64,000 nt of DNA. Source: a bacterium. GTDB taxonomy: Bacteria; UBA8248. A program made the translations under genes and the position numbers. This document shows positions 14,522 to 43,451 of this stretch, piece by piece. The DNA is taken from contig CBDBBI010000010.1 of assembly GCA_965202625.1 (NCBI GenBank), forward strand, positions 2,176,001-2,240,000, read 5' to 3'. The stretch's first letter is position 1. Each line of letters begins with the position of its first letter. The notes beneath the pieces are model-generated. The model worked only from the letters and a program-made list of their open reading frames with translations, was not told the DNA's origin and ran no database searches.

Positions 14522-14598
14522 GAATGGAGATTATTTGTTTCCAGTCGGGAGCCTCGTGATGCCAATCGCGCGATTCAGTTGTCGGGATTTTCAATCAT

Positions 14599-15408: not shown

Positions 15409-17115
15409 CTAAGGCGCCGCGATAAATTCGTTCTTCATCATTTCCTTGAGTTGTTCCACTGGAAAAACACCCAGCTCCTGCCATGCCGCACGCACTCCGA
15501 TGCGTCTCTGGACACGCTTCAAGGATTTCCCCTGAAACAGACGTTCCTTGTCCGGATCATCCATGAGCTCGGAAAGCGCCCAGATGAGAGCGGTGCGGAC
15601 CTTGACGTCCCCGGGGACGGAATTCCTCGACACGACAAGATTGATCAACTCTTCCCAATAGGACTGCGAGACGCTCAGCACCTTTCGGACGCTTCTCGGT
15701 TCCGCGCCGGACTGCTCGCATATCTCGCGGGTGAGATGTCCGCGCCACCAGGCGCGCGCGAACGGGCAGTTTACGTAGACGCTGCGATTGCCGCGCGCTT
15801 CCGGCAAGCCACTCATGCGCCTGATGGCGGTGCGGACGACGTCGTCAACCTCTTTTTTGTTTTCTCCTTTGAGCACCCGTTCGATTCTTTCGAGTCCTCT
15901 TGAAGCGTCGCCGCCGTTTGCGGCGAGGTAGGAGGATTGAATGCGGCCCGCCTCTATGTGGCGCAAGGTGATGAACCCCCAGAGCGTCACCCGGCACGCA
16001 TCCGCCGGAGAGAGCGATTTCCATGCCTCAAACATCCGTTCCTCAGCACTTTCCGGCGGATCCTTGAACTCCGATTCTGTGAGCGGCTCCTCCAGCATCG
16101 ACGGAGCCTCTCCCTCTTCCACCCTGACTTCATTTCTCATCCAACTGGGAAATTCATCGCTGCGGCACAGGACGGACAGAAATTCACGCTGCGCATCAGA
16201 ACCTTTCGATTTGAGTAAATTCTTGCGCAGCTTGGTATAGGAAGCGTCTTCAAACTTTTCGCAGGGCATCCCTACTCCTTCAACCTCTAAACGAGGCGGA
16301 ACATGGGGATACAACTTCGTCGCGACCTCATCGGCCAAGAAGTCTTTGTCGTCCCATGTCAGGAGGTCGTGTTCTTCAAGCATCTCCCTCAGCGCTTTCA
16401 GGTTGCTGAACGCTTCCCATTTTGGGGCCTCCTCCTCTTCGGCGCTCTCGCCGTAGCCGCGCACCAATATCTCAAAGCACCTGCTCACTACATGGGTCCG
16501 CACGCTATTGCAGTGGGCTTGATGCCCCCCTGCATTTTGCATAAAGGAAAACAGATTGGATGCCGTATGCACCTTGAAATAAAACCCATCCTCCTGACAC
16601 GGCACCACCTGAAAACAGCCATCCGGCAAGTCCGTATCCTTCTCGACGCGAAGTAAATTATGGAGAGAGGCCGTCGGTCGCAGATAGTTTTGCAGGGCCA
16701 GACGCGCGCCGGATGGAATTTCAACCTCTCGGCCTTGCCAGGCTTCCGCCACTCCGTCGTGCGGCCCCAAGATGCAGGAAAATGAAGAAGTAGCGACGAT
16801 GAGGGGACGCAGAATGGGCGGCTCACCCACTACGTCCATCTTCCATTCCACCTGCTGGCGTGCGTCGTCTGCGAGATGCAATTTTCTGTATCCCGTCAAC
16901 GGCACGGCGACCAGACAGCCGTATCTGGCTTTGCCCTCGGAGATTGCGCGCTCGAGGAAAGCCGCCCCCCGGAGTGCGTGATTCAACACCACCGAGGCCC
17001 CGTCTTGCCTGGGCTTCGCCTCCACCAGATATTCTCCCTCTGGATAGGACATATTGCCGTCCTCAAGCGCCGGATAGGGAAGGGAGCGGACGAGTTCTCC
17101 CGCTTTCGCCATCAC
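15409..17115 (-). CDS. Hypothetical protein, probably a fusion of two genes; C-terminal half DUF6339-like
   Basis: 568-aa ORF with internal AAGGAG-N5-ATG at 16269; C-half has 'CPFARAWW'; N-half starts 'LPYPAL'; family assignment tentative. Confidence 0.55.
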   Translation of the reverse strand: MMAKAGELVRSLPYPALEDGNMSYPEGEYLVEAKPRQDGASVVLNHALRGAAFLERAISEGKARYGCLVAVPLTGYRKLHLADDARQQVEWKMDVVGEPPILRPLIVATSSFSCILGPHDGVAEAWQGREVEIPSGARLALQNYLRPTASLHNLLRVEKDTDLPDGCFQVVPCQEDGFYFKVHTASNLFSFMQNAGGHQAHCNSVRTHVVSRCFEILVRGYGESAEEEEAPKWEAFSNLKALREMLEEHDLLTWDDKDFLADEVATKLYPHVPPRLEVEGVGMPCEKFEDASYTKLRKNLLKSKGSDAQREFLSVLCRSDEFPSWMRNEVRVEEGEAPSMLEEPLTESEFKDPPESAEERMFEAWKSLSPADACRVTLWGFITLRHIEAGRIQSSYLAANGGDASRGLERIERVLKGENKKEVDDVVRTAIRRMSGLPEARGNRSVYVNCPFARAWWRGHLTREICEQSGAEPRSVRKVLSVSQSYWEELINLVVSRNSVPGDVKVRTALIWALSELMDDPDKERLFQGKSLKRVQRRIGVRAAWQELGVFPVEQLKEMMKNEFIAAP

Positions 17116-22844: not shown

Positions 22845-23855
22845 GTGAAAGATGGTAGGGGATCAGTCGTTCAATATGCCGTGGTGGATTGCGATCCAGG
22901 CGTGGATGACGCGCTTGCTTTGGCAATGGGTTTCTCGTCTTCCTTTTTGCAATACGTTGCGGTGACAACCGTGCATGGTAATGTTTCCGCGCGTTTGGCT
23001 TACCAAAATGCGAGGAAACTCACGGCGTTTCTGCGCGCGCACCTCAAGCATTCCATTGAAGATGTTCCTGTCTACCGGGGGGCCTCGCTGGCCTTGGACG
23101 GAAGCCGCTTGAACCGGAGCGAATCACTTAAGATTCACGGGGCGGATGGCCTAGGGATGATGTTCAGGAGCGAAGGACGCTCTCGTCGCCTGGGCAAAGG
23201 AGGCGCAAAATCGTCTTGTGATGTGCTCGTTGAGCAGGCTCGTTATTGGGGCTCGCAACTCACCATCATCACCTTGGGGCCGTTGACGAATTTAGCCTTG
23301 GCCTTGCGACGTGCCCCTGATGCCTTCTCTCGGGTGCACCGGATTGTCGTCATGGGAGGGGCCGCTCAAATGCCTGGCAACGTGACTCCAGCGGCCGAAT
23401 TCAACATCTATTGCGACCCCCAGGCAGCGGCCGAAGTATTCTCATCCGGGCTTCCCATCACGATGGTGGGTCTTGATGTCACGAGGCGTGCTCTTCTTCA
23501 CGTCAATAAATTTGAAGGCGGCGGACCATTTCGGGCGGCGCTTCGAGATCTCATCAAAGCGTATGCCCAATTCTCCAGAAAAAGAAGAGGGACAAATGAT
23601 ATTACTTTACACGATCCTCTGGCGCTCGCCGTCGGAATGAAGCCAGGTTTCGTAGAAACAAGGCGGTGTCGGGTAGACGTGGACACGAGCAAGGGCATCG
23701 CGCGAGGGATGACGGTAGTGGATTTGAGGGAGAAGGTGCAGTCTCGCGTCAAAAATCCGATCGACGTGGCCTTGGATGTGGACGTAAAGTGTTTTTTGGC
23801 GTTCTTCATCTCGCAGCTGCGTAAATATCGTGGATGGAGCGCCGATGAAAAATGA
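22845..23855 (+). CDS. Inosine/uridine-preferring nucleoside hydrolase
   Basis: DCDPGVDD, HGADGLG, GPLTN, MGG...GNVTPAAEFNIYCDP, LHDPLA. Confidence 0.92.
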   Translation: MKDGRGSVVQYAVVDCDPGVDDALALAMGFSSSFLQYVAVTTVHGNVSARLAYQNARKLTAFLRAHLKHSIEDVPVYRGASLALDGSRLNRSESLKIHGADGLGMMFRSEGRSRRLGKGGAKSSCDVLVEQARYWGSQLTIITLGPLTNLALALRRAPDAFSRVHRIVVMGGAAQMPGNVTPAAEFNIYCDPQAAAEVFSSGLPITMVGLDVTRRALLHVNKFEGGGPFRAALRDLIKAYAQFSRKRRGTNDITLHDPLALAVGMKPGFVETRRCRVDVDTSKGIARGMTVVDLREKVQSRVKNPIDVALDVDVKCFLAFFISQLRKYRGWSADEK

Positions 23856-24805
23856 AAAAGGCACCATTTTGGTGCTAGGGAGCTCGAATGTCGACATCGT
23901 CGTTCGTGTGGATAGACTCCCGTCTGCGGGTGAAACGGTAATGGGAGAGAGCTTTCAGGAACATTGGGGTGGAAAAGGGGCGAACCAAGCTCTTGCTGCC
24001 GCCCGCGCTGGCGCGGAGGTCCATTTTGTCACCATGTTGGGAAATGACGCGGAAGGCGACGCCTATCGTCGTTATTTGATGGAAAGTGGGTTATCGCCCG
24101 ATGGCGTATTGCGTTGTAAGTCAAGGACGGGTAGGGCGCTGATTGTGGTGGGGAAAGGGGGTGAGAACCAAATCGCTGTGACTCCTGGCGCAAATCGGTT
24201 CCTCACGCCTGGAAGAATGAGAAGGAAACCAAGGCTTTTGGATTTCTGAGAGATTGTCTTAGCGCAACTAGGTCCCGGTTTCATCCATTACAGCCGTGTT
24301 CCGAAAGGGGAGGAGGCGCGGTGCTCGCAACATCTTAAATCCGGCCCCGGCGCCCGAAAGTTTGCCTCAAGAGCTGATTCGATTGGTCGATGTGTTGACG
24401 CCAAACGAAACGGAAGCGGCGAAGCTGGCCAAGCTCAAGAGAATACCCACGAGTGCCGAGGAGTTTTTGCGCGCTTCGCGCGCTTTGGAAATGTTGGGGC
24501 CTTCTTGCGTCATCATTACGGCGGGGGGAAAGGGCGCTTTTGTTCTGAATCAAAACAAGGCTTATTGGCTGAGAGCTCCCGTTGGACTGAAGGCGGTGGA
24601 TACGACAGGGGCGGGCGATGCTTTTTGTGGGGCGCTAGTGGCTAAATTTTCAGAGTGCACGGAACTTGAAGATGCGGTTCGTTTCGCAGTTGGCGCGGGC
24701 TCGTGTTCTGTAAAAAGACATGGTGCTCAGGCGGGCTTGCCTTCGCGCCGACAAATTATGAAAACCCAGGGCGAGGTGCGCCACAAACAGGTTTGGGTTG
24801 GTTGA
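23845..24805 (+). pseudogene. rbsK: Ribokinase, disrupted by TGA 24247-24249 and a frameshift near 24271
   Basis: N-half GSSNVD...GGKGANQA; C-half NPAPA, PNETEA, DTTGAGDAF in a different frame; 'QL(E)VP' lacks 2 nt. Confidence 0.8.
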
Positions 24806-33117: not shown

Positions 33118-33499
33118 GAAATATGGAAGGCGTTAAGACTCTCAGGTTTTTTCGTGCTCGGCAAGGACTCTCATATATCCAGGCTATGACGTGAAGGTTT
33201 TGGCGGGGTTTATCAGGGGGCCTCGGCGGATTTTGCTCTCCCCACTGATTGACAGGCGTGGAGTTGCGCGCGTCCCCTGTGGTATCCGTATCTTCGCTCA
33301 CGGTAGGGCGGGGCGTGGGCGTTCAAGGCGCGCATCCGGATCGGACGATGTGAGCCGGTGCGTTTCTCATTTTCGGGTGGCCCGAAAGCGAGAAAAAAGG
33401 CGCGGACGTTCACCTTGGCGAGCGCTTTAGGCGGGAGATGCTTTCTGGCTTGCCAGAGGTTTCGATTCATGGTCTTTTAAGGGGCGTGAAAGAGCACGA

Positions 33500-34015
33500 A
33501 TGGAGGAGAGGGAAGTGCATTCGGTGAAGCAGGAGGGGGAAGACCAGCGATGGATGGAAGAAGCGCTGGCATTGGCCAAAAGGGCTGAGAATGCGGGAGA
33601 TGTGCCCGTGGGTGCCCTTGTGGTTCGTGAAGGTCGAGTGCTGGGGCGCGGGTTCAATAGACGGGAGGCCGCTTGCGACCCCACGGCGCACGCCGAAGTC
33701 TTGGCGCTTAGAGAAGCGGCTGAGACCGACGGTATATGGCGCCTCGATGGCGCCACTTTGTATGTGACGCTTGAGCCGTGCCCCATGTGCGCGGGCGCCA
33801 TGATCAATTCGAGGATCGCCAGGCTCGTGTTTGGCGCCAAAGACCCCAAGGGCGGGGCCTGTGGCTCTTTGTTTGACATTCCCTCGGACCCGCGCGTGAA
33901 CCACCGCGTCCCCATAACCTCGGGGGTGATGGCTGAGGAGAGCGGCAAAATGCTGCGCGCTTTTTTTGAAGAGCGACGCCGCGTCGCTCGAGAGGCGAGG
34001 GGGGCCGTCCGCTGA
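33500..34015 (+). CDS. tadA: tRNA adenosine(34) deaminase
   Basis: DVPVGA, DPTAHAE, TLEPCPMCAGA, DPKGGA, NHR. Confidence 0.95.
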   Translation: MEEREVHSVKQEGEDQRWMEEALALAKRAENAGDVPVGALVVREGRVLGRGFNRREAACDPTAHAEVLALREAAETDGIWRLDGATLYVTLEPCPMCAGAMINSRIARLVFGAKDPKGGACGSLFDIPSDPRVNHRVPITSGVMAEESGKMLRAFFEERRRVAREARGAVR

Positions 34016-34028
34016 AGACGCCCGTCTG

Positions 34029-34120
34029 GGAGAGGTGGCCGAGTCCGGTTTAAGGCGGCAGACTCGAAATCTGTTGTGCAGGCGACTGTACCGGGGGTTC
34101 GAATCCCTCCCTCTCCGCCA
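34029..34120 (+). tRNA. tRNA-Ser(CGA); island integration site
   Basis: GGAGAGG/CCTCTCC acceptor stem, gcaga-ctCGAaa-tctgt anticodon arm, long variable arm, GCCA end. Confidence 0.95.
34090..34120 (+). repeat. attL-like direct repeat (31 bp, 3' end of tRNA-Ser)
   Basis: ACCGGGGGTTCGAATCCCTCCCTCTCCGCCA identical to 41830-41860. Confidence 0.92.
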
Positions 34121-34224
34121 ATAAATCCATAACTTAGATGCCAATCGTCGGGGACGAGCTTCAACCCCTGGCGCCATCGCTCGACAACAGCGTCCTGGTG
34201 AGGAAGACGAAGTCGCAACGCCTG

Positions 34225-34475
34225 CCAAGGCCGCTCAAGCCGAAGCGATTCCATGGAACCGTGCAGATCGACGCCACGCGCGTTGGGACGCGGATGCGAG
34301 CAAGATCGCGGATGAGGTTATTGCGCACCTCTCCGGTCTCGTTGGCGCCAAAGTTACTGTGACCCTGGAGATCGACGCGGAGATCCCGTCGGGCGCACCC
34401 GACCAGGTCGTTCGCACGGTTACGGAGAACGGGCGGATCTTGAAGTTCACGAGCCAAGGCTTCGAGGAGGAATAG
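34225..34475 (+). pseudogene. C-terminal remnant of a DUF499-like ATPase
   Basis: PKRFHGTVQIDATRVG, frameshift near 34290, then DASKIADEVIAHLSGLVGAKVTVTLEIDAEIPSGAPDQVVRTVTENGRILKFTSQGFEEE*, recognised as the typical DUF499-protein C-terminus. Confidence 0.65.
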
Positions 34476-34539
34476 GCCGCATGTCGACATTTTGCTTTCT
34501 GAAATGCCGCCGGCAGGAGTTTCTGTGGAGCCAAGATCG

Positions 34540-34917
34540 ATGACGGACGATAGCCAACAAGCAGATCCCGCAACGCTGCCGAAATCGCTGCTAGACTTTG
34601 TCGTGGATTCGTGGCATTTCGGGCGCTTGTGCGACCGGTTGCTGCGGAAGCTGGACGCGGGCGAACAAGGAAGGTATCGAGGCCAGTTTCGTTGGTTTCA
34701 GAGAAAACTCGAGGACTCCCTCACGGACGCCGGGATGCGGATTGTCAACGTCGAAGGACACCCATTCGATATGGGGATGGCTGCGACACCCCTCAATATC
34801 AAGGAGTTTGGATCTGAGGACGCGCTGGTCGTCGATCAGATGCTCGAACCAATAATTATGGGCCCGGAGGGCGTAGTCCGATTAGGCACGGTCACGCTCA
34901 GGAAGGTGGAGTCATGA
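34540..34917 (+). CDS. GrpE-like small protein
   Basis: Helical N-part then 'GMRIVNVEGHPFDMG...VVDQMLEP...GVVRLGTV', resembling the GrpE beta-domain; ATGA overlap with Hsp70. Confidence 0.6.
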   Translation: MTDDSQQADPATLPKSLLDFVVDSWHFGRLCDRLLRKLDAGEQGRYRGQFRWFQRKLEDSLTDAGMRIVNVEGHPFDMGMAATPLNIKEFGSEDALVVDQMLEPIIMGPEGVVRLGTVTLRKVES

Positions 34918-37412
34918 ATAACTATGTTGGTATTGACCTGGGTACGACGAACAGTGCGATCTGTTCATACGACGGCGACGAGACCCGTATCTGGAAAAGC
35001 CCCGAGCAGAACGATGTGACGCCATCGGTGATCTACATGGACCGGCGGGGAAACAAGTACGTAGGTAAACGGGCCTATGACTCGGCACCCCACAGCCCGG
35101 ACAACGCCGCAATGCTATTCAAACGCCTGATGGGCACGAGTACGCCCATTAAGCTATCAGCGGTCGATATCACAATGAGCCCAGAGGAATGTTCTTCCGA
35201 GATTCTTCGGGTGCTATATGGCTACCTACCGGAGGAACTTCGAAACGATTCGGACGTTGGGACCGTTATCACGGTGCCTGCCGCCTTCAATCAGATGCAG
35301 AAGAACGCCACGATGCAGGCGGCAGAGCTGGCCGGAATCGGCCGGGTCGCACTGATGCAAGAGCCCGTTGCGGCGGTGATGAGCGTCATGAAGGCGCGCA
35401 ATGCGGACGGCATCTTTGTTGTCTACGACCTTGGAGGCGGCACGCTTGACGTTGCGCTTGCAGAGAGCATTGGGGGGCGAATTAACCTTCTTGCGCATGG
35501 TGGCATAGCGATGTGCGGCGGAAGGGATTTCGACCGTTTTCTCCTCGATAGCGTCATCAAACCTTGGCTATTCAAGAATTTTGATCTCCCTGAAGATATT
35601 TCGACCGACTCGACCTATAAACCCTTGCTTCGATTGGCAGCTTGGGCAGCCGAACGCGCCAAGATTGAACTGTCGGCGCGCAAAGAGGCGATCATCAGTC
35701 TGTCCGAGACTGAGGCGCGCGTTCGAGACCAATCCAATCAGGAGATCTACATCGATATTCCGCTGGATCGGAGCGCCCTGGACGAATTGATCAATGAGAA
35801 GGTTGGCGAATCAATCGAGGCCGCACGGGAGGCGCTTGCCAAAGCTGGATGGAGTCCTCACGACGTCGAGCGGGTCGTTTTCGTTGGCGGTCCCACGAAC
35901 TACAAGCCGCTGCGAGACAAAGTGTCGTTCGAGCTTGGGATATCTGCGAGCACCGAAGTCAATCCGATGACGGCCGTTGCTGAAGGCGCTGCTCTTTTTG
36001 CCGAATCTATTGAGTGGGGTTCAGAGAATCGCAGTCGTAAGAGCAATCGCGGAAGGTTAGCATCGAGCGGACAACTCGATCTGTCCTTCAATTACACCGC
36101 ACGCACGCCGGATACTCGGGCGAAGATCGTCGTGCAGGTTGGCGGTCAGGTGATGCCAGGTGCGGAGTTCCAGGTGGACAGTCTGGATACTGGTTGGACC
36201 TCTGGCCGATTGCCGCTGAGCAATGGCGCCGCCGTCGACGTATCACTCTCGAAGAGCGGAGAAAACGGGTTCAAAGTCTTTGTTTTCGATGCGGCTGGCG
36301 GCCCGTTGCCGTTGACGCTCGAACAGGACAAGATTGCGATCACGAGGACTGCGGCTACGGTCGATGCTATCCCGGCCTCGCACTCCATAGGCATTGAAGT
36401 GCTGGAGAAGCTCGGTGGTACACCCACTATCGAATGGCTTGTCCGGGCGGGAGACCAGTTACCGAAGAAGGGAAAGCGAGTTTTCAAGGCGGGCGAGTCG
36501 TTGAAGGCCGGTAGCACTGGTGCGCTCAATTTCAAATTGCTTGAGGGCGAGAGCGACGTGCCAGCCGACAATCGCTTTATCGGGCTTCTAAAGATCACGG
36601 GCAGCGACTTCGACGATGGGGTGATCCCGGCCGGAGCGGACCTCCAGTGCGATTTCGAAATGCTTGATTCCGGAAACATAGTGCTCGAGGTGTCCGTTCC
36701 GAGCATCCGTGGAACGTTTCATTCCGGTCGGAACTTCTACTCGCGCCAAAAAGGCCAGATGGACTTCAGTAGCGAATCCGCGCGTATCAGTAAAGAGGGA
36801 GAACGGACACTTCAGCGCCTCGACGACATCGCCGAAGTCATAGACGACCCCAAACTCGAGCAGGCGCACAGGAAGCTGACTTTGGCATCACAACTCAATG
36901 CGGATGAGCCGGATACCGAGCGCGCCCAAGAAGCGATGGAGGGAGTCGTTGAAGTGCGTCGTCTGTTGGCGAAGTTGCGAAAAGAGAACCTTAAGAAGAT
37001 TCGGCCGATGGAGCTTGACAGTGCTACTGAATTCTTCAATGAGCACATTCGTAAATTCGCGCGCCCGAGCGAGAAAAACGCGTTCGATAATCTGGTGCGG
37101 ACCGCTCAGCGCGCTATTGAACGAAAAGACAAGGACTTTGAGAGCCATCTGGAGGAACTCAAACGCACGAACTTCGAAATCCTGTGGCGGCAAGACTGGT
37201 TCGTCGTGCGGAAGTTCCAGTGGATGGCTGATTCACCACACCACTTCTCTGACCCGGTTCGATTCAAGGAATTCGTTTCAATGGGCCTGAATTCACTCCA
37301 GGCTGACGATATTGACTCGCTGCGGCAGATCGTCGGGCGCCTTGAACATATCCGGATTGATACGGGAGCGGATACGGACATGCTCGACATCGCCAACATC
37401 ATCCGAGGCTAG
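34914..37412 (+). CDS. Non-canonical Hsp70 family protein (832 aa)
   Basis: GIDLGTTNS, TVPAAF, EPVAA, YDLGGGTLD, GGRDFD, VGGPT; extended divergent C-terminal region; not housekeeping DnaK. Confidence 0.92.
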   Translation: MNNYVGIDLGTTNSAICSYDGDETRIWKSPEQNDVTPSVIYMDRRGNKYVGKRAYDSAPHSPDNAAMLFKRLMGTSTPIKLSAVDITMSPEECSSEILRVLYGYLPEELRNDSDVGTVITVPAAFNQMQKNATMQAAELAGIGRVALMQEPVAAVMSVMKARNADGIFVVYDLGGGTLDVALAESIGGRINLLAHGGIAMCGGRDFDRFLLDSVIKPWLFKNFDLPEDISTDSTYKPLLRLAAWAAERAKIELSARKEAIISLSETEARVRDQSNQEIYIDIPLDRSALDELINEKVGESIEAAREALAKAGWSPHDVERVVFVGGPTNYKPLRDKVSFELGISASTEVNPMTAVAEGAALFAESIEWGSENRSRKSNRGRLASSGQLDLSFNYTARTPDTRAKIVVQVGGQVMPGAEFQVDSLDTGWTSGRLPLSNGAAVDVSLSKSGENGFKVFVFDAAGGPLPLTLEQDKIAITRTAATVDAIPASHSIGIEVLEKLGGTPTIEWLVRAGDQLPKKGKRVFKAGESLKAGSTGALNFKLLEGESDVPADNRFIGLLKITGSDFDDGVIPAGADLQCDFEMLDSGNIVLEVSVPSIRGTFHSGRNFYSRQKGQMDFSSESARISKEGERTLQRLDDIAEVIDDPKLEQAHRKLTLASQLNADEPDTERAQEAMEGVVEVRRLLAKLRKENLKKIRPMELDSATEFFNEHIRKFARPSEKNAFDNLVRTAQRAIERKDKDFESHLEELKRTNFEILWRQDWFVVRKFQWMADSPHHFSDPVRFKEFVSMGLNSLQADDIDSLRQIVGRLEHIRIDTGADTDMLDIANIIRG

Positions 37413-37414
37413 CC

Positions 37415-38872
37415 ATGGCTCAAGAGCGCTGGTTTCCGGTAAAGCACGAGCTGTCAGGCCGGTCTAAGCTCGGTCGCCTTCTGCACTGCGGGGCGGACTG
37501 GCAGATCTACCGACTTGACCGTGAGAATTCGGTGTTGGTAGCGCGAAGCACTCTTGCCGACCGGTGGGTAGAAGCGGGTTTTTTGCCGGATACTGTTCTT
37601 GAGTTGTTCACGTTCGGCAAGGAGAGCTACAAGGCAATGGCGTCAGGGCCGGACCAGAGACTAGAGCCTGTCGCGGAAGGTGGTTCCCCGGACAGCAAAG
37701 CGGATGGGCTCTCTTTTGCGCTCAGTCTACGCGAAAGCCGAAAGATTGACGCCGAGGTTCCGCTGCATGACGCCGTATACGCGGAGCGCTACTCGCGGCT
37801 GCTCCCGACCTGGACCGTGTCGGAAGCAACCTCTGATGAGGAGGTTCTGGGACGATGGTTGACCGGCGGCGTATCCATTCCCGCGACCTCCTTTCGGCGC
37901 CTGTCCAGCCTGCTGGGGTGGCTTGACAAGAAGGACGTTCACGACCTCGTTGAGGCAGCAGGATTTTCGGCGCCGCTGGATTCAGGCGGGTCGCTGACGA
38001 AAGAGAGGCCGAAGCGCGGAAAAACAAAGCCTGAAAGCGAGAAGGCTGCAACGCCTCGGACGCTGACTGAAGGAGACTCAGGTGAGCGTCCGCAAATGCG
38101 ACAGTTCCAGCTTTCGGGGCGCCCGGACCTGGAGGCGTTCTTCAACGAGCACGTTATCGACATCATCGAAAACACGGAGCGGTACAAGGCGCTGGGGATC
38201 GAGTTCCCGACGGCCATCGTCTTGCACGGACCGCCGGGATGCGGAAAGACATTCGCTGTGGAGCGGCTCGTCGAGTATCTCGATTGGCCGATCTTTTATG
38301 TCGACTCTAACAGTGTCAGCAGTCCATACATTCACGAAACCAGCCGCAAGGTAAGCGAGGTGTTCGATAAGGCAATGGACGCATCCCCATCGATGATCGT
38401 GATCGATGAAATGGAGTCATACCTGTCGGACCGGCAAATCCATGAATCTACCGGCCTTCACCACGTCGAAGAAGTTGCCGAGTTCCTTCGCCGTATTCCG
38501 GAGGCGAACAAGCGCGGCGTCCTAGTGATTGGCATGACCAATCGGCTAGAGATGATCGACTCGGCCATTCTTCGACGTGGTCGATTTGACCATATTGTTG
38601 AGGTGGGCATGCCATCCGCCACTGAAGTTTCGAGCTTGATTGACTCACTGCTGGTCAAGGTTCCGGTAGAAGGCGCAATTGACACCAAGGATGTGGTGGA
38701 GGCATTGACCGGTAGGGCGTTATCGGACACTGTGTTCGTTGTGCGGGAGGCCGCGCGGCTCGCGGCGCGCGCCGGGAAGAACGCTCTGGACGACGAGTTT
38801 TTGCGGGCAGCGCTCGCGAGTCTTCCCCCGGCCGAGCCGAAGAAGCGATCGATCGGTTTCATTCAGGATTAG
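37415..38872 (+). CDS. AAA+ ATPase (CDC48/FtsH-like single module) with an uncharacterised N-terminal domain
   Basis: GPPGCGKT Walker A, IVIDEME Walker B, MTNR...IDSAILRRGRFD second region of homology, C-terminal RSIGF. Confidence 0.9.
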   Translation: MAQERWFPVKHELSGRSKLGRLLHCGADWQIYRLDRENSVLVARSTLADRWVEAGFLPDTVLELFTFGKESYKAMASGPDQRLEPVAEGGSPDSKADGLSFALSLRESRKIDAEVPLHDAVYAERYSRLLPTWTVSEATSDEEVLGRWLTGGVSIPATSFRRLSSLLGWLDKKDVHDLVEAAGFSAPLDSGGSLTKERPKRGKTKPESEKAATPRTLTEGDSGERPQMRQFQLSGRPDLEAFFNEHVIDIIENTERYKALGIEFPTAIVLHGPPGCGKTFAVERLVEYLDWPIFYVDSNSVSSPYIHETSRKVSEVFDKAMDASPSMIVIDEMESYLSDRQIHESTGLHHVEEVAEFLRRIPEANKRGVLVIGMTNRLEMIDSAILRRGRFDHIVEVGMPSATEVSSLIDSLLVKVPVEGAIDTKDVVEALTGRALSDTVFVVREAARLAARAGKNALDDEFLRAALASLPPAEPKKRSIGFIQD

Positions 38873-38875
38873 GCC

Positions 38876-40537
38876 GTGGAGCTGCTAAAGAATCCATTTT
38901 TCGTCCTTGGTGCCACGATGCGAGATGACCGGCGCCGCATCATGGAACTGGCCGAAGAGAAAAGTCTGCTCTCTGACGAGAGCTCGGTTCGTGATGCCAG
39001 AGCGACCCTTACTAATCCGAGAAGGCGCCTCGCAGCAGAGGTGGGTTGGCTGCCGGGGCTCGGCCCGAAGCGAATTACAGAGACGTTGTTTGTTCTAGAA
39101 AAAGACCCTATCAAGGTCCGCACTCAGGGAAATTTGCCGGCCCTCGCACTTGCCAATCTTTTAGCTGATGGCTTGGTGCGCGCCGCTGCGAAGCTGCCAC
39201 TCGACGAGGTTGCGAAATGGATCGTTCAACTTGCCGAGGCCGAGGCGTATGACGACCTCGAAATCGAGCTAACGGTCATGTTGTTGAACAAGGAACGTTC
39301 GGTGGCTGGCTTCCCCGATATTTCAGATCTCCAGAATGTAGAGGAAGAGCTTCGGGCTCGGCGCCGGTACTACTGCCAGGCGATAAAGGATGCTCTCGAC
39401 CAGTTGCCTGCTACATCTCTCGTGGAGGTCGTAACACGGGCGGTTGATCAGGCGACCGCCAACGGCTCAAAGCACGCTCCGATTCTGATTGACGATTTGG
39501 CGGATAGTTTTGCACTTGAGGCCCAGGGTTTTCTTGAAATGGAGACGAAGAATATCGCGGGGCTTGTGCAGGGAGTACGAAGCGCGGCCGAGGGCGAGAA
39601 AGGCGAGAGATATATCGGTGGCCTTGTCGGACAGCTAGAAAAAGTGCTCAAGAACTGGGACACGGTGGTTCAGCCGATCCAAGTGAGTGCCCAGAGCCGG
39701 GGCATGAGGCACGATCCCAGCCATGAGGTTGCGCGCGAGATTAGAAGTCTCGCGGTGGACCTGTTCAACGAGCATGGCCTCCTCGATCTTTCCAAGCGAC
39801 TAACGGCACTCCAGCAGGAGGTGTTTGCCGAGGTTGACAGGGTAGTGGAACAGTTGGAGAAGGATGCCTCCGCGCTGGATGAGATTGCCGAGCAGAGGAG
39901 TCAGTTTCTCGCAGACATGGAGACTCGAGCTGAGTCCTGGAAACGCGAAGTCACCTACGAAGCCGACGTTGGTGTGATGTTCAAGGATAAGCTGCGTATC
40001 TCACCGGCCGGGGTCCTGTGGAAAGGAACGAAGATTCCACTGGAAGATATCAATCGAGTGAGATGGGGCGGTACCCGGCATTCCGTCAACGGTATTCCAA
40101 CTGGTACGACGTACAACATCTTCGTTGGCGCCGCGAGGGGCGGGACCACTATCAATCTGAGAAAAGAGCATATCTACTCGGAGTTTGTAGGCCGCCTCTG
40201 GAAGACGGCGGGTGTGCGCCTCCTAACGGAGATGCTCGAGGGGCTGAAGGCCGGCAAGCGATATAGGTTCGGAACAGCCGTCATTACTGATGATGGTGTT
40301 GAGCTGGAAAGGCGCCATCTCTTCGCAGCCAATGAACGGGTTCTCTGCCCGTGGACGGAACTGGTCATCGGCAACAGAGGCGGTACGTTCTACATCGCCA
40401 AGAAGGATGAGAAGAAGGTAGCGGTCGAGTTGCCTTATCAGGATATGGACAACGTCCACATCCTCGAGGCTGCGATGCGCGTTTTCTGGAAGAACGCCAG
40501 CCCCAGGCTGAGCGATCTGCTAAACAAGACGCACTAA
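38876..40537 (+). CDS. Hypothetical protein with J-domain-like N-terminus (no HPD), helical core and C-terminal PH-like repeats
   Basis: NPFFVLG...ARATLTNPRRR resembles J-domain helices I and IV; two beta-rich C-terminal segments. Confidence 0.6.
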   Translation: MELLKNPFFVLGATMRDDRRRIMELAEEKSLLSDESSVRDARATLTNPRRRLAAEVGWLPGLGPKRITETLFVLEKDPIKVRTQGNLPALALANLLADGLVRAAAKLPLDEVAKWIVQLAEAEAYDDLEIELTVMLLNKERSVAGFPDISDLQNVEEELRARRRYYCQAIKDALDQLPATSLVEVVTRAVDQATANGSKHAPILIDDLADSFALEAQGFLEMETKNIAGLVQGVRSAAEGEKGERYIGGLVGQLEKVLKNWDTVVQPIQVSAQSRGMRHDPSHEVAREIRSLAVDLFNEHGLLDLSKRLTALQQEVFAEVDRVVEQLEKDASALDEIAEQRSQFLADMETRAESWKREVTYEADVGVMFKDKLRISPAGVLWKGTKIPLEDINRVRWGGTRHSVNGIPTGTTYNIFVGAARGGTTINLRKEHIYSEFVGRLWKTAGVRLLTEMLEGLKAGKRYRFGTAVITDDGVELERRHLFAANERVLCPWTELVIGNRGGTFYIAKKDEKKVAVELPYQDMDNVHILEAAMRVFWKNASPRLSDLLNKTH

Positions 40538-41752
40538 GTGGCAATTGGCGTGAGAGGATACAATGAGCGACGAGAAGGAAAAAAAGGGTTCTCTGGGCTC
40601 TCGTCTCTTGCCTCCGACGTTGAGGAAGTCGCGGCAGACACACCGCGCCAAAAGGATCAAACGGAAAGACGCGCTGCGCAACCGCAGAGACAGAGCACCG
40701 GATCCTCCACGCATAGTTCAGCAGCACAGACGAAGCCCTCACATTCTCAACGGCCCGAGCCGGAGGAGGTGGCTTCAGGTACATCCCGAGCCCCTACCTC
40801 CGGATCTTCTGGCGCAAAGTGGTTCTGGGGTCTGGTCGGGGTTGGTGTGTTGATCTGGCTGTTCAACGCTGCTCAAGAGGACAGCAGCAGTCCGAGCCGT
40901 GGTCGCTCGTATACCCAACCCACCCCTACGCCTAGTTACACGCCGCCGGTGTCACCGGCGCAGCAACCGGGGCTCGATTTTTCGCAGCCACCTGTAGGCC
41001 AGAACAAAGTGCTGTCCGTCGCGCAAATACGATGGTGCCTTCGGGAGGAGATTCGGATTGAAGTCTTGCGACCTCTGCCGACGACGAACTCGCAGATAGA
41101 CCAGTTCAACGCCGTCGTCGCTGACTACAACAACCGATGCGGGAACTACCGTTACCGTGGAGGAACGTTGACGCGCGCACGACGAGAAGTCGAACGTGTG
41201 AGAGCGCAGATCGTTGCGAGCGTCGCGCCGGCGCAGCCTCGGCCGGTTCAGCAACAGTCACAATTAGCACTGGACGTGCAGAATGCACTGACCGCGTTGG
41301 GGTACGAACCGGGGCCTGCTGACGGCTTGTATGGCGCCAGAACCAGGTCGGCGATCCAGTCCTTCCAGCGGGACGTCGGACTCGCCGCTGACGGGCAAGT
41401 GACAGAGGCACTGCTAGAGCGCCTTCGGCTAGAGGTTGTCTCGCGTCGATCACGAGGCACATCGGCGACCACTGGCGGTGTCACGCCACCGAGTACGGCC
41501 ACACGCTCGAAGGGCGAGCCAAACGCGTACTTTACTAGGAACTCACACCAGGACGACGTACTTCGATTGCAGGGGACACCATCGGATATCACGCGCTACG
41601 ATGCCTTGGGATACGAGACGTGGTATTTCGGCCGCAGCACGGTGAACATCGATTCTCGTACGCGGCGGGTGCTCGAGTGGGACAACAAACCAGGCAGTCA
41701 GGTTACCTCGTCTACGGCGTTTACACGGAACTCGCACGCGGACGAAGACTAA
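40538..41752 (+). CDS. Single-pass membrane protein with a peptidoglycan-binding domain; C-terminus probably truncated
   Basis: TM segment WFWGLVGVGVLIWLF; VQNALTALGY.PGPADGLYGARTRSAIQSFQ...GL.ADG (PG_binding_1); repeat FTRNSH(Q/A)D whose second copy is cut short. Confidence 0.75.
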   Translation: MAIGVRGYNERREGKKGFSGLSSLASDVEEVAADTPRQKDQTERRAAQPQRQSTGSSTHSSAAQTKPSHSQRPEPEEVASGTSRAPTSGSSGAKWFWGLVGVGVLIWLFNAAQEDSSSPSRGRSYTQPTPTPSYTPPVSPAQQPGLDFSQPPVGQNKVLSVAQIRWCLREEIRIEVLRPLPTTNSQIDQFNAVVADYNNRCGNYRYRGGTLTRARREVERVRAQIVASVAPAQPRPVQQQSQLALDVQNALTALGYEPGPADGLYGARTRSAIQSFQRDVGLAADGQVTEALLERLRLEVVSRRSRGTSATTGGVTPPSTATRSKGEPNAYFTRNSHQDDVLRLQGTPSDITRYDALGYETWYFGRSTVNIDSRTRRVLEWDNKPGSQVTSSTAFTRNSHADED

Positions 41753-41829
41753 ACGCGCGAGAGGATGGCGTTCGAATTAGACGCGATCTGGACACGGTAC
41801 CTTTTTAACTTATTGAAAAATAAGGAAAC

Positions 41830-41860
41830 ACCGGGGGTTCGAATCCCTCCCTCTCCGCCA
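41830..41860 (+). repeat. attR-like direct repeat (duplicated tRNA-Ser 3' end)
   Basis: Identical to 34090-34120. Confidence 0.92.
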
Positions 41861-42278
41861 TTCGGATTTCAGGAAGCGAAGATCTGCTGGAGCGGCTCTC
41901 CCGTTGGATCCTTTCCGTGCGCGGTTGCGCGCGCCCTTCCCCCTTGGGGAAGGATTTTCCGCTTTTCATTCAAGCAGAAGCGTCTCACCGCCCGGGGGTC
42001 GTTCGACAGATCTAAGGATAAGAATTTCAGGGTTGCCCATGTGCGCCCGATGCACATCTCATATTGCTCCCTCCCAGAATGAAATGAAATCCCAGAAGCA
42101 TTCGAGAAATAAATCAGAAATTCAGAATTAACGCTTGCGAAACGAACAATATATGTATCGCCCATATCATGGATGTAGTCATGGGGTGGCGGCGTTTACT
42201 TTGTTTGAATCTTCATCTGTATTGGCCCACTAATTCCCCTAAAACCGAGATACTCGTTTTAACGAAGGAGATGGCCCA

Positions 42279-43451
42279 ATGAAGGAAAATTTGTCTCATG
42301 ACAGGCGGTTCAGGCGCCGTGATTTTCTGAAAATGGGAGCAAGCGCGGCTGGCGCGGGGTTGTTGCCACTCCTGAAATATTTGCCCGCGGAGGCCGCCAC
42401 GGGCCGCGGCATGCTCGTGGTCGTCATTGGCAACGGCCCCAACGGCATGGACATTCACAGAAAAGGAACAAATCGCCCAAGCTATCAAGTTGCCGTGAAC
42501 CTCTATGATCGTTTGGTTACCTATGGAAGAAAGAAACTCACAGACGGGAACGTCATGTACGATTATCAGAAGATTGAACCGGAGCTGGCTGAATCCTGGG
42601 CGTTCGCCCCGGACGGCATGGCCGTCACCTTCAAGATTCGCCAGGATGCCAAGTTCCACGACGGAAAACCCGTCACCGCTCATGACGTGAAATGGTCTTT
42701 CGACCGGGCGGTTTTCCAGCCGTCCAGATGAAGGCAGGTTCGCTTGTTCGCCCCGATCAGTTCATCGTCGTTGATGACTATACTTTCAAGATCAAATTTA
42801 TCCGCAAGAGCAAGCTCACATTGCCCGACCTCGGCGTTCCCGTTCCCATCATTATGAACTCGGTGGTCGCCAAAGCAAAAGCTACAAAGAGCGACCCGTG
42901 GGCGACGGAATACTTGCACAGGAACCCGCAGGGAAGCGGCGCATTCAAGTTGCAGCAATGGAAACCCAGACAGCATACAGTTTGCATTCGCAACGATGCC
43001 TGGAAATCGGGCCCCCTGCCTGGCGTGAAGCGGGTGATCATTCGGGAAGTGGCGTCGGCCTCCACGCGTCGCGCCCTGTTGTTGCGAGGAGATGCCGATG
43101 TGTCTCTTGATCTCCCGCCGAAGGACACCAAGGAACTTACGAACAACAAAAAGATCAAGATCGCTGGTGTTCCCCTGGGCCTATCAGCCGAAGCGCCTTT
43201 TCAACTCGATGAACTACAACACCCCGATGCTGAACAAACTTGTGGACGAAACCCTGCACATGCCGGTGGGCAGCCCCGGCTATGCGGAGCGCGTCAAAGC
43301 TTTCATCAAAATCGCTTTCGAGGAAGTGCCCCTCATTCCGCTCTGGCAACCTTATCTGGATGTCGCGATGCAAAAGAACATAGAGGGGTACGAATATTGG
43401 TTTCACCGTCAGCTTGACGTGAGGTCGTTCACGAAATTGCGTAGAGCCTAG
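42279..43451 (+). pseudogene. Degraded peptide/nickel ABC substrate-binding protein (Tat signal)
   Basis: RRRDFLK Tat motif, LAESW, FHDGKPVTAHDVKWSF; frameshift near 42712 and a large deletion near 43170. Confidence 0.85.

What the first reader, a model, noticed from the sequence alone, without database searches (positions are those of the whole stretch)
34540..41752. Island-borne five-gene operon GrpE-like / Hsp70 / AAA+ / J-like / membrane PG-binding protein: candidate uncharacterised chaperone-based defence or envelope-surveillance system
Seen in sequence: five co-directional genes with gaps of -4, 2, 3 and 0 nt, which points to one translationally coupled unit, filling almost all of a tRNA-integrated island. 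Established: DnaK works with GrpE and J-proteins, and tRNA-integrated islands commonly carry defence systems. Here every partner is atypical. The Hsp70 is 832 aa with an inserted and extended C-terminal region, the GrpE-like protein is short, the J-like protein lacks HPD and ends in PH-like domains, the AAA+ is a single-module CDC48/FtsH-like type with an unknown N-domain, and the last gene is a single-pass protein with an external peptidoglycan-binding domain. Inference: this is a dedicated Hsp70 machine coupled to an envelope sensor, possibly anti-phage or host-interaction, and not a housekeeping chaperone. I do not recognise it as a named system.
Basis: partly seen in the sequence, partly recalled or inferred. 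Interest (0 to 1): 0.85.

Follow-up and report, generated by a model that had tools for sequence, protein, structure and literature searches.

The report
Mobile membrane-tethered Hsp70 chaperone operon
A small mobile island carries a self-contained Hsp70 chaperone machine with its own GrpE-like exchange factor, an uncharacterised adaptor, an AAA+ unfoldase and a cell-wall-facing membrane protein; the set recurs across many bacterial phyla, often beside anti-phage genes, and its function is untested.

Summary
Five co-directional genes (gaps -4, 2, 3, 0 nt) fill 94% of a 7.7-kb island bounded by a perfect 31-nt repeat of the tRNA-Ser 3' end.

The unit recurs. In 28 genome loci from about a dozen phyla, g1-Hsp70-g4 is present wherever the sequence allows. 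The AAA+ gene is in 16 of 27 loci and the membrane protein in 12 of 28.

- **g1:** its model matches GrpE (VIA Z 9.6-8.6 for the five best GrpE entries).
- **g2:** it keeps the Hsp70 ATPase motifs. It has a roughly 110-aa insert and a barely recognisable substrate-binding region.
- **g4:** no J-domain could be shown (no HPD in 120 relatives, hhalign 22%). Its tail is tandem PH-like.
- **Fusions:** natural Hsp70-g4 and g4-g5 fusions argue for one membrane-tethered complex.

The system rides on Tn7-like transposons, plasmids and a relaxase-bearing element. Five of seven annotated plasmid contexts hold restriction, Zorya/BREX, helicase-nuclease or toxin-antitoxin genes. PADLOC does not know it, and eight literature searches found no description.

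My reading is a dedicated, envelope-coupled Hsp70 machine (about 0.8), probably acting in conflict or defence (about 0.45-0.5). There is no recognisable effector and no experimental data.

The parts
34029..34120 (+). tRNA-Ser (anticodon CGA), the integration target. Its 3' 31 nt (34090-34120) form the left copy of the island's direct repeat.
   Evidence: ARAGORN, Rfam tRNA 57.4 bits, repeat family D4.
34161..34475 (+). C-terminal remnant of a Swt1-HEPN/DUF499-type gene. There is no start codon and a stop lies upstream in frame. It is debris of another, defence-associated cargo gene.
   Evidence: Translation. tblastn against plasmids gave 29 records, the best 71% identical to the end of genes annotated as Swt1 family HEPN or DUF499 proteins. 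No Pfam hit.
34540..34917 (+). g1: a 125-aa GrpE-like protein (helical hairpin plus beta domain), the predicted nucleotide-exchange factor of g2. Its stop overlaps the g2 start by 4 nt.
   Evidence: AF2 model, pLDDT 90.6. The 10 best Foldseek matches are all GrpE chains. VIA Z: 9.6 (1dkg_B), 9.5, 9.3, 9.2, 8.6. Present directly upstream of g2 in 26 of 26 informative loci. No Pfam, NCBIfam or PDB sequence match.
34914..37412 (+). g2: an 832-aa Hsp70 paralogue. It has an ATPase domain (1-364), an insert of about 110 aa (about 377-480), a weakly SBD-beta-like stretch (about 486-599) and a long helical tail of unknown fold.
   Evidence: Pfam HSP70 2.8e-56 on residues 5-364. Below every NCBIfam DnaK/HscA cut-off. 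hhalign against the genome's own DnaK gives 99.96%; the SBD stretch alone gives P=0.0037. ATPase motifs are invariant in 23 sequences.
37415..38872 (+). g3: a 485-aa classic-clade AAA+ ATPase (core 244-467) with a conserved N-domain (1-195) of unknown fold. It is an optional module of the system.
   Evidence: Pfam AAA 4.4e-27. Partial NCBIfam matches to PAN, FtsH and CDC48. PADLOC IetA 5.3e-26, core only. Walker A GPPGCGKT, Walker B VIDE and the RRGRFD motif are read from the sequence. The N-domain profile finds nothing in the PDB. Present in 16 of 27 informative loci.
38876..40537 (+). g4: a 553-aa adaptor of no known family. Its conserved N-module (1-345) has four short helices, then an all-alpha domain. 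Two PH-like beta modules follow (361-458, 463-540).
   Evidence: AF2 model, pLDDT 90.0. PH-type VIA matches: 2yf0_A Z 8.4, 3qij_A Z 7.9, 1qqg_B Z 7.9. No Pfam. The family has 1291 clusters at E<=1e-10. Fused to Hsp70 and to the g5 domain.
40538..41752 (+). g5: a 404-aa membrane protein. It has a conserved N-terminal motif KKGFSGLSSLxSDV, a hydrophobic stretch (about 95-112), a conserved domain of about 80 aa with two Cys (about 145-231), PG_binding_1 (246-296) and a variable tail.
   Evidence: Pfam PG_binding_1 7.3e-15. Alignment of 15 homologues. My Kyte-Doolittle scan at threshold 1.6 did not flag the window's own hydrophobic stretch, so the single-pass topology is inferred from the sequence and from homologues.
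41830..41860 (+). Right copy of the 31-nt direct repeat (attR-like), which ends the island.
   Evidence: 100% identical to 34090-34120. Public contigs break at both copies, and the island forms its own 7762-nt unitig.

Best explanation
The island carries a self-contained, horizontally mobile Hsp70 machine that works at the inner membrane.

**Shown here**
- g1, g2 and g4 always travel together.
- g2 keeps the Hsp70 ATPase motifs.
- g1 has the GrpE fold.
- g4 is found naturally fused to Hsp70 in some lineages. In others it is fused, through a transmembrane helix, to the conserved domain of g5.
- That g5 domain carries a peptidoglycan-binding module of one of two unrelated types in a subset of lineages.

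**Inferred mechanism**
1. g5 sits in the inner membrane, with its two-Cys domain and peptidoglycan-binding module in the periplasm.
2. g4 docks on the cytoplasmic side and recruits g2 through its conserved N-module.
3. g1 resets g2 by ADP release, as GrpE does for DnaK.
4. Where present, the AAA+ g3 threads or unfolds a client handed over by g2, as ClpB does with DnaK.
5. An event at the envelope, relayed through g5 and g4, switches this remodelling activity onto a target.

The elements and neighbours the system keeps suggest that the target is an invading phage or other mobile element, or a host protein whose unfolding aborts infection.

**My odds**
- One dedicated Hsp70/NEF/adaptor complex: about 0.8.
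- Coupled to the envelope: about 0.65.
- Acts in defence or conflict: about 0.45-0.5.

The trigger, the client and the killing or blocking step are unknown.
For: **Conserved order across phyla**
- tblastn of the five proteins on 28 loci found g1 in 26 of 26 informative loci, g4 in 27 of 27, g3 in 16 of 27 and g5 in 12 of 28.
- The loci come from Gammaproteobacteria, Acidobacteriota, Desulfobacterota, Nitrospirales, Poribacteria, Synergistaceae, Elusimicrobia, Negativicutes and others.
- A distant S. meliloti variant (Hsp70 35% identical) still has g4N, the g5 domain, g1 and Hsp70.
- No other neighbour is conserved.

**Fusions**
- Hsp70 NBD fused to the g4 N-module in two Poribacteria loci (812 and 805 aa).
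- A near-complete HSP70 fused to g4 in P0154.
- g4 N-module, TM helix and g5 domain in single ORFs of 638 and 842 aa.

**Folds and motifs**
- g1 matches GrpE.
- The g2 ATPase motifs are invariant, and g2 aligns with the genome's own DnaK at 99.96%.
- g3 has Walker A, Walker B and arginine-finger motifs.

**Accessory and mobile**
- Present in 2 of 42 genomes of the family and 2 of 51 of the phylum.
- The second copy in the genus lies at another locus, beside a TrwC relaxase.
- g2 homologues are 70-87% identical across phyla.
- The system is cargo directly after tnsABCDE on two plasmids.
- In the window it sits in a tRNA island with a perfect direct repeat.

**Defence context**
- Five of seven annotated plasmid contexts hold defence or toxin-antitoxin genes: ZorA and BrxD; RelE/ParE with a helicase and a PLD protein; a TaqI-like enzyme with an ATP-dependent endonuclease and a UvrD helicase; a restriction endonuclease, a methyltransferase, Fic/VbhA and RelE; an AAA ATPase, a helicase and a RES toxin.
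- The window's island also holds a remnant of a Swt1-HEPN/DUF499 gene.
- Among 142 flanking ORFs of 17 genome loci there are strong single PADLOC matches: MkoC 4.6e-59, MkoA 1.2e-53, a type IIG enzyme 3.1e-51, DrmMI 7.8e-30 and Hhe 2e-27.
Against: - No recognisable effector (nuclease, protease, NADase, pore former) is among the five genes or their conserved neighbours.
- PADLOC has no model for g1, g2, g4 or g5. Its IetA match to g3 covers only the generic AAA+ core.
- In the 17 genome loci, the commonest flanking Pfam families are housekeeping ones: NADH dehydrogenase/antiporter subunits in 6 ORFs, then ATP synthase and transporters. I could not compute an enrichment over background, and I do not know how many of the 17 loci hold a defence gene.
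- g4 shows no J-domain by any sequence test. The arginine of the DnaK 'qRiinEp' segment aligns with Ala146 in g2; that this arginine contacts the J-domain is recalled. Canonical J-type stimulation is therefore doubtful.
- The substrate-binding domain of g2 is not statistically supported on its own.
- g3 and g5 are missing from many loci, and PG-binding modules from many g5 proteins.
- No binding, expression or phenotype was tested.
Confidence: 0.5

Rival explanations
1. It is a mobile proteostasis or stress-tolerance module. The extra Hsp70, NEF, adaptor and AAA+ unfoldase protect or repair envelope and membrane proteins under heat, desiccation or chemical stress. This would resemble the horizontally transferred heat-resistance and protein-quality-control islands of Gammaproteobacteria (recalled, not tested here).
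For: - All recognisable parts are chaperone-type: Hsp70 ATPase, GrpE fold and a classic AAA+ related to PAN, FtsH and CDC48.
- There is no toxin-like effector.
- Flanks in chromosomal loci are mostly housekeeping genes.
- A 2026 review regards bacterial DnaK derivatives as unexplored co-chaperones (PMC13580251; I read section 9).
Against: - The system is rare and patchy: 2 of 51 genomes of the phylum.
- It repeatedly sits beside restriction, Zorya/BREX and toxin-antitoxin genes.
- No small heat-shock protein, protease or other stress gene is conserved beside it.
- The adaptor is private and lacks HPD, and the substrate-binding region is highly diverged. Both argue for one specific client and against general refolding.
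Confidence: 0.25
2. It serves the mobile element that carries it and not the host. Possible roles are establishment after transfer, entry exclusion, remodelling of replication or transfer proteins, or counter-defence.
For: - It is always on or beside mobile DNA: Tn7-like cargo, plasmids, next to a TrwC relaxase and in a tRNA island.
- DnaK-type chaperones are known to remodel plasmid and phage replication initiators, according to a passage of PMC8215388 seen.
Against: - The carriers are of unrelated kinds (Tn7-like element, IncP plasmid, relaxase-bearing element, integrase-less island), so no single element function is shared.
- The partner is a periplasm-facing, cell-wall-binding protein, which has no obvious link to replication.
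- g4 found no match in 50,697 phage records.
Confidence: 0.12
3. It is an ordinary housekeeping chaperone paralogue set, or a chance juxtaposition of unrelated genes.
For: Many bacteria have extra DnaK paralogues (title and abstract of PMC11019930, from the listing).
Against: - The genome has its own DnaK, DnaJ and CbpA-type genes elsewhere.
- The five genes lie inside an island bounded by a perfect 31-nt repeat.
- The order is kept in 28 loci across phyla at up to 87% identity.
- Natural fusions link three of the components.
Confidence: 0.03

Closest known systems
DnaK-DnaJ-GrpE chaperone triad
   Same: - An Hsp70 ATPase with conserved catalytic motifs.
- A GrpE-fold partner encoded directly upstream.
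- A third, obligatorily co-occurring partner (g4).
   Different: - g2 scores 209 bits against a DnaK cut-off of 822. It has an insert of about 110 aa where the interdomain linker should be, and its substrate-binding region is barely detectable.
- g1 lacks the long N-terminal helix and matches no GrpE sequence model.
- g4 has no HPD and no detectable J-domain.
- The set is rare, mobile and membrane-linked.
Specialised bacterial Hsp70 pairs HscA-HscB and HscC-DjlC (review PMC8215388; listing and passages seen; details of DjlC recalled)
   Same: A diverged Hsp70 paralogue works with a private co-chaperone encoded beside it. The paralogue is sporadically distributed and thought to spread by gene transfer. 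DjlC is membrane-anchored (recalled).
   Different: - Those partners are true J-domain proteins with HPD, and those pairs have no private GrpE (recalled).
- g2 falls far below the HscA cut-offs (186-193 bits against 620-708).
- Here there is also an AAA+ and a periplasmic, peptidoglycan-binding partner.
GAP1-N2 GTPase-centred conflict systems with HSP70, GrpE and DnaJ-fused proteins (Kaur et al. 2020, PMC7159879; passages read)
   Same: It is a computationally predicted conflict system in which an HSP70 and its GrpE, together with a DnaJ-type partner, are recruited outside housekeeping proteostasis.
   Different: - Those systems are built around TRAFAC GTPases, with FNIII-repeat proteins, and occur mainly in Actinobacteria and Firmicutes.
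- Here there is no GTPase. The partner has no J-domain, an AAA+ is present, and the spread is mainly in Gram-negative phyla.
IetAS anti-phage system (PADLOC IetA models, NCBIfam 'anti-phage ATPase IteA')
   Same: The g3 AAA+ core matches IetA models at 5.3e-26 and NF042959 at 6.2e-22.
   Different: - The match covers only the AAA+ core (residues 246-467). It scores 78 bits against a cut-off of 510, no better than the matches to PAN, FtsH or CDC48.
- No IetS-type protease partner is present (the partner's identity is recalled).
ClpB-DnaK bi-chaperone disaggregase, and Cdc48/FtsH-type membrane extraction
   Same: An Hsp70 is encoded with a hexamer-type AAA+ unfoldase, and the AAA+ is of the clade that includes FtsH and Cdc48. 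This is the model for step 4 of my mechanism.
   Different: - g3 has one AAA+ module, no ClpB middle domain, no FtsH protease or membrane anchor and a novel N-domain.
- It is dispensable in 11 of 27 loci.
Zorya ZorAB envelope-anchored sensing (concept recalled; ZorA, an OmpA-family protein, an EH-signature protein and an SNF2-related protein are annotated next to the system)
   Same: A defence-island system whose membrane component carries a peptidoglycan-binding module (PG_binding_1 or OmpA-like in g5).
   Different: g5 is a single-pass protein and not a MotAB-like stator. There is no homology to ZorA or ZorB. The cytoplasmic partners are chaperones and not a nuclease or helicase.

Membership tests
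Hsp70 (g2) | Actin-like nucleotide-binding domain matching the HSP70 model | tested here: met
   Pfam PF00012 2.8e-56, 191 bits against a cut-off of 20.6, on residues 5-364. hhalign with the genome's own DnaK gives 99.96%.
Hsp70 (g2) | Conserved ATPase motifs (phosphate-1 GIDLGTTNS, the Lys of FKRLMG, QEPVAA Glu, DLGGGTLD, VGGPT, NPMTAVAEGAA) | tested here: met
   These residues are invariant or nearly invariant in 23 aligned family members. Their catalytic roles are recalled from DnaK.
Hsp70 (g2) | Substrate-binding beta domain and helical lid following a short hydrophobic linker | tested here: inconclusive
   The Pfam match stops at model position 373 of 599. hhalign places 486-599 collinear with the DnaK SBD after an insert of about 110 aa. 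That stretch alone gives only P=0.0037 and probability 9%. A profile of the C-terminal 363 positions finds no Hsp70 in the PDB.
DnaK / HscA equivalogs (g2) | Score above NCBIfam's curated cut-off | tested here: not met
   DnaK TIGR02350: 209 bits against 822. HscA TIGR01991: 186 bits against 708.
GrpE (g1) | Helical hairpin (four-helix-bundle half) followed by a small beta domain | tested here: met
   The model (pLDDT 90.6) has helices 12-36 and 40-63, then six strands. The 10 best Foldseek matches are all GrpE chains, E 1e-3 to 0.1. VIA gives Z 9.6 (1dkg_B, 113 aligned, rmsd 6.7), 9.5, 9.3, 9.2 and 8.6. The high rmsd reflects a different angle between the domains.
GrpE (g1) | Match to a GrpE sequence model | tested here: not met
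   No Pfam or NCBIfam family at E<=0.1. A profile of 27 homologues finds no GrpE in PDB sequences at E<=10.
GrpE (g1) | Long N-terminal dimerising helix | tested here: not met
   g1 is 125 aa, and its model aligns with residues 70-195 of E. coli GrpE chain 1dkg_B. The part before that is absent.
J-domain proteins (g4) | HPD tripeptide between helices II and III | tested here: not met
   None of the 120 family representatives in which the N-terminal motif was located (of 150 examined) shows HPD at that place. The loop reads SLxxD (alignment).
J-domain proteins (g4) | Match to a J-domain sequence model | tested here: not met
   - No Pfam DnaJ hit at E<=0.1.
- hhalign of g4 residues 1-78 against 21 J-domains gives probability 22% over 16 columns, helix III only.
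- An HMM of those J-domains against 177 family sequences has a best E of 0.16.
- The J-domain set was small and of low diversity.
J-domain proteins (g4) | Four-helix J fold | tested here: inconclusive
   The model has four short helices (7-11, 19-30, 35-46, 48-56), a J-like order. Neither fold search of the whole 553-aa model listed a J-domain, and the N-terminal part was barely tested.
PH-like domains (g4 C-terminus) | Beta sandwich capped by a C-terminal helix | tested here: met
   The model has two beta-plus-helix modules (361-458, 463-540). VIA matches: MTMR6 PH-GRAM 2yf0_A Z 8.4 (77 aligned, rmsd 2.8), FERM 3qij_A Z 7.9, IRS-1 PH-PTB tandem 1qqg_B Z 7.9 (146 aligned over 357-547). These Z values are middling, so the fold is likely but not certain.
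Classic-clade AAA+ (g3) | Walker A, Walker B and second region of homology with arginine fingers | tested here: met
   Pfam AAA 4.4e-27, model positions 1-130 of 131. GPPGCGKT, IVIDEME and ILRRGRFD are read in the sequence. Best partial matches are PAN, FtsH and CDC48.
IetAS defence system | IetA above cut-off, together with its protease partner | tested here: not met
   NF042959: 78 bits against a cut-off of 510. No protease domain occurs in the five genes.
PG_binding_1 proteins (g5) | Match above Pfam's cut-off | tested here: met
   PF01471: 55.3 bits against a cut-off of 23, residues 246-296. The module is present in 5 of 15 aligned g5 homologues, and one other has an OmpA-like end.
GAP1-N2 GTPase / HSP70 / GrpE conflict systems (Kaur 2020) | TRAFAC GTPase core component | tested here: not met
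   No GTPase family is found in any of the five proteins, and none among the conserved neighbours.
Known anti-phage systems (PADLOC-DB 2.0.0) | Any component model matched over its length | tested here: not met
   No family at E<=0.1 for g1, g2, g4 or g5. Only generic AAA+ matches for g3. The library dates from 2023.

The most novel reading that the evidence does not exclude
This is the first Hsp70-centred immune system of bacteria. A periplasmic, cell-wall-attached sensor (g5) signals across the membrane through a private HPD-less adaptor (g4) to an Hsp70 motor that has its own GrpE. With or without an AAA+ unfoldase, the motor then dismantles a phage or plasmid protein, or unfolds a host protein to abort infection. 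That would be defence by protein remodelling, with no nuclease, NADase or pore.
Probability: 0.35. Interest if true: 0.9.

Novelty: new variant of a known kind. Interest (0 to 1): 0.72.

Why it matters
Hsp70 with GrpE and a targeting partner is one of the best-understood molecular machines. Yet bacterial DnaK derivatives were called largely unexplored 'dark matter' in a 2026 review (PMC13580251, section 9).

This family is large. The g4 signature protein alone has 1291 clusters at 50% identity with E<=1e-10. It crosses phylum boundaries at 70-87% identity, and it has a defined, testable parts list.

If it defends against phages, it adds a mechanism class to bacterial immunity: ATP-driven protein remodelling, possibly triggered from the cell wall. 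If it is a stress module, it is a transferable envelope proteostasis kit.

Either way, it offers a natural example of an Hsp70 run by an adaptor without HPD. That bears on how Hsp70 ATPase cycles can be controlled.

Tried and rejected
**Sequence searches that gave nothing**
- PDB hmmsearch with profiles of g1, g4, the g3 N-domain and the g2 C-terminal part gave no credible match.
- Foldseek of the whole g4 model against the PDB gave nothing at E<=0.001.
- The VIA wide search of g4 is dominated by helical repeats and designed proteins. It does not test the first 60 residues.
- ESM Atlas on g4 returned only clusters of hypothetical proteins and held no structure.

**J-domain tests.** All were negative or weak. 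I keep 'J-like' only as a lead.

**Defence-neighbourhood survey.**
- I pooled 142 flanking ORFs from the 17 loci L001-L008, L011, L014, L018-L022, L025 and L028, out of 238 flanking ORFs from 27 loci (L016 had none).
- The 96 ORFs of the Poribacteria and Synergistaceae loci were left out for size.
- I scanned the pool with PADLOC and Pfam. The output gives counts per family, not per locus.
- I therefore cannot say how many loci hold a defence gene, and I have no background rate.

**Other dead ends**
- Empty site: relatives of the genus do not have tRNA-Ser beside the downstream transporter gene, so no empty site could be compared.
- Promoter and terminator scan: 1 promoter-like and 5 terminator-like sites, both below the shuffled expectation. 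Uninformative.
- Expression: no RNA holder is listed among the 12 runs, so nothing can be said.
- Laid contigs show no joint across the island, but unitigs break at the repeat, so an empty site could not have been seen.
- Phage records: no g4 match.

**Literature.** I ran nine full-text searches: all noted below, plus one search's source search.
- Searches found no paper with all their terms.
- The other searches on the system listed nothing that describes it.
- searched for HscC, DjlC and J-domain proteins.
- Passages read: PMC7159879, PMC11090510, the 2026 ParA preprint, PMC13580251 (section 9), PMC8195603, PMC13692203, PMC12642450 and PMC8215388. None concerns this gene set.
Supplementary tables of the Aravind and Koonin surveys, and of Tn7-cargo surveys, could list this family without my seeing it.

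**Considered and rejected**
- CoCoNuT CnuD Hsp70 units: there is no McrBC here.
- A TerB-type or MoxR-vWA ternary system: no such domains appear.

Full report
**1. What is in the window**

Five ORFs lie head to tail on the + strand:
- g1: 34540-34917
- g2: 34914-37412
- g3: 37415-38872
- g4: 38876-40537
- g5: 40538-41752

The gaps are -4, 2, 3 and 0 nt.

Directly upstream lies tRNA-Ser(cga), 34029-34120 (Rfam). Its last 31 nt recur perfectly at 41830-41860. A 7.7-kb island is therefore delimited, and the operon fills 94% of it.

The rest of the island (34161-34475) is the C-terminal remnant of a Swt1-HEPN/DUF499-type gene. The island has no integrase.

G+C content does not set the island apart: 0.56-0.59 against a similar background.

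**2. The parts**

*g2.*
- It matches Pfam HSP70 only over its ATPase domain (2.8e-56, residues 5-364). It falls far below the DnaK and HscA cut-offs.
- In an alignment of 23 family members, the phosphate-binding, Lys, Glu and DLGGGTLD motifs are invariant.
- Profile comparison with the genome's own DnaK gives 99.96%. It places residues 486-599 collinear with the DnaK substrate-binding beta domain, after an insert of about 110 residues.
- That stretch alone is weak (P=0.0037). A profile of the C-terminal part finds no Hsp70 in the PDB.
- The arginine of the DnaK 'qRiinEp' segment aligns with Ala146. That this arginine contacts the J-domain is recalled.

*g1.*
- It has no family by sequence.
- Its model (pLDDT 90.6) is a helical hairpin plus a beta domain.
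- The ten best Foldseek matches are all GrpE chains. VIA-align gives Z 9.6, 9.5, 9.3, 9.2 and 8.6 to GrpE entries over nearly its whole length.

*g3.*
- It is a single-module classic AAA+ with Walker A, Walker B and arginine-finger motifs.
- Its conserved N-domain is of unknown fold.
- Its PADLOC IetA match covers only the AAA+ core.

*g4.*
- It has no Pfam family, and all of its listed homologues that carry a source name are called hypothetical protein.
- Its model (pLDDT 90.0) has four short N-terminal helices, an all-alpha domain to residue 359, and two beta-plus-helix modules.
- Those modules match PH-type domains at Z about 8.

*g5.*
- It has a conserved N-terminal motif (KKGFSGLSSLxSDV), a hydrophobic stretch and a conserved domain of about 80 residues with two cysteines.
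- Its end is variable: PG_binding_1 in the window and four other homologues, OmpA-like in one, and nothing recognisable in the rest.

**3. Is g4 a J-protein?**

I could not show it.
- HPD is absent from all 120 of 150 family representatives in which the motif could be located.
- hhalign against 21 J-domains reaches only 22% over 16 columns of helix III.
- A J-domain HMM finds nothing significant in 177 family sequences.
- The fold searches of the whole model do not probe the N-terminus.

The helix order and the 'LTNPRxR' motif resemble a J-domain. That remains a lead and no more.

**4. The unit recurs**

A scan of species-representative genomes found 28 loci. tblastn with the five proteins gives:

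| Gene | Loci with the gene | Informative loci |
|---|---|---|
| g1 | 26 | 26 |
| g4 | 27 | 27 |
| g3 | 16 | 27 |
| g5 | 12 | 28 |

- The hosts span many phyla. g2 homologues are 70-87% identical across them.
- The order is sometimes g3-g5-g4 (L008, L014 and the Tn7-borne copies).
- All-against-all comparison of neighbours finds no further conserved gene.
- A distant S. meliloti variant (Hsp70 35% identical) still has g4N, the g5 domain, g1 and Hsp70, without the AAA+.
- The g4 family has 1831 clusters at 50% identity with E<=0.001, and 1291 with E<=1e-10.

**5. Fusions**

- Two Poribacteria loci encode an Hsp70 ATPase domain fused to the g4 N-module.
- P0154 is a near-complete HSP70 (Pfam model positions 78-594 of 599) fused to g4.
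- In Sinorhizobium sp. and Aminobacter plasmids, one ORF joins the g4 N-module, a transmembrane helix and the g5 domain.
- In other lineages, g4 itself ends in hydrophobic or transmembrane segments.

Together these argue that Hsp70, g4 and g5 form one assembly at the inner membrane.

**6. Mobility and company**

- The system is found in 2 of 42 genomes of the window's family and 2 of 51 of its phylum.
- The other copy in the genus lies elsewhere, beside a TrwC relaxase.
- On Shewanella and Aeromonas plasmids it is the first cargo after tnsABCDE.
- Polaromonas pPNAP01: it lies between ZorA/OmpA/EH/SNF2 genes and helicase and BrxD genes.
- S. meliloti pSymA: beside a TaqI-like enzyme and an endonuclease-helicase pair.
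- Sinorhizobium sp. plasmid: beside restriction, methylase, Fic/VbhA and RelE genes.
- Aminobacter plasmid: beside an integrase, an ATPase-helicase pair and a RES toxin.
- Vibrio rumoiensis plasmid: beside helicase and PLD genes, an integrase and RelE/ParE.

Against this, the pooled flanks of 17 chromosomal loci are mostly housekeeping genes, with scattered strong defence matches. I have no background rate. No phage record holds g4.

**7. Reading**

The evidence is strong that this is one dedicated Hsp70/NEF/adaptor machine tethered to the envelope. Its company and carriers fit a conflict or defence role. No effector is recognisable, however, and nothing was tested.

The main rival is a transferable envelope proteostasis module. 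A role for the carrying element itself is a lesser rival.

**8. Known or new**

- PADLOC-DB (2023) has no model for four of the five proteins.
- Eight of my nine literature searches looked for a description of the system and found none; the searches and passages read are listed in Tried and rejected.
- The nearest printed precedent is the HSP70-GrpE-DnaJ theme inside GTPase-centred conflict systems (PMC7159879; passages), which differs in core and distribution.
- A 2026 review calls bacterial DnaK derivatives unexplored (PMC13580251, section 9).
- Supplements were closed and might list the family.

I rate it a new variant of a known kind of machine.

**9. Limits**

The g2 C-terminus, the g3 N-domain and the g5 ectodomain are therefore unfolded.
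- No RNA run is listed.

Noticed in passing
window 34161-34475: A gene remnant between the tRNA and the operon. It is the last ~70-100 codons of a Swt1-HEPN/DUF499-type protein (up to 71% identical to plasmid genes), with no start. It suggests the island once carried, or recombined with, another defence-type cargo.
   Followed up: partly
window 42279-43417: The solute-binding protein gene downstream of the island looks broken. It is split into two overlapping frames (42279-42731 and 42692-43417). It also lacks about 470 nt that twelve relatives of the genus have between window positions 43174 and 43175.
   Followed up: partly
window 23830-24805: A pfkB-family kinase is split into two ORFs (23830-24249 matches model positions 4-118; 24296-24805 matches 158-301). 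This is either a frameshift or deletion, or an assembly error.
   Followed up: no
window 33400-42600 (runs X1-X4): In public contigs the island is its own 7762-nt unitig. Its depth equals that of the flanks in two runs. In two other runs it is lower or partial, and there the flanks carry variant letters. This is a weak hint that a co-occurring strain lacks the island. Contig depths cannot prove it.
   Followed up: partly
L017 12621-15059; L023 12584-15001; L024, L026, L027: Poribacteria variants lack the AAA+ and g5. They have two or three g4 paralogues in tandem and an extra protein that fuses an Hsp70 ATPase domain to the g4 N-module. Several g4 copies end in a short hydrophobic tail.
   Followed up: partly
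L021 8033-16297: In a Marinacidobacterium MAG, both g2 and g3 are interrupted. g2 pieces lie at 8033-8536 and 10001-11797; g3 pieces at 13454-14329 and 15764-16297. Insertions of about 1.4 kb each are likely, so this copy is probably decaying.
   Followed up: no
L029 19446-23253; L030 19572-23379: In the Tn7-like cargo of the Shewanella and Aeromonas plasmids, six further small co-directional genes follow the system, one of them an RDD-family membrane protein. One of the six also occurs upstream of the system in L006. In the Aeromonas copy the Hsp70 gene is annotated in two pieces.
   Followed up: no
window 9208-14714: A complete rRNA operon (16S, tRNA-Ile, tRNA-Ala, 23S, 5S) lies 20 kb upstream of the island.
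   Followed up: no
L019 13802-15688; L020 4312-6318: In Elusimicrobia and Parasutterella, the g4 N-module is followed by hydrophobic segments, a Ser-rich linker and a beta-rich domain that is probably outside the cell. This is another way of linking the adaptor to the envelope.
   Followed up: no
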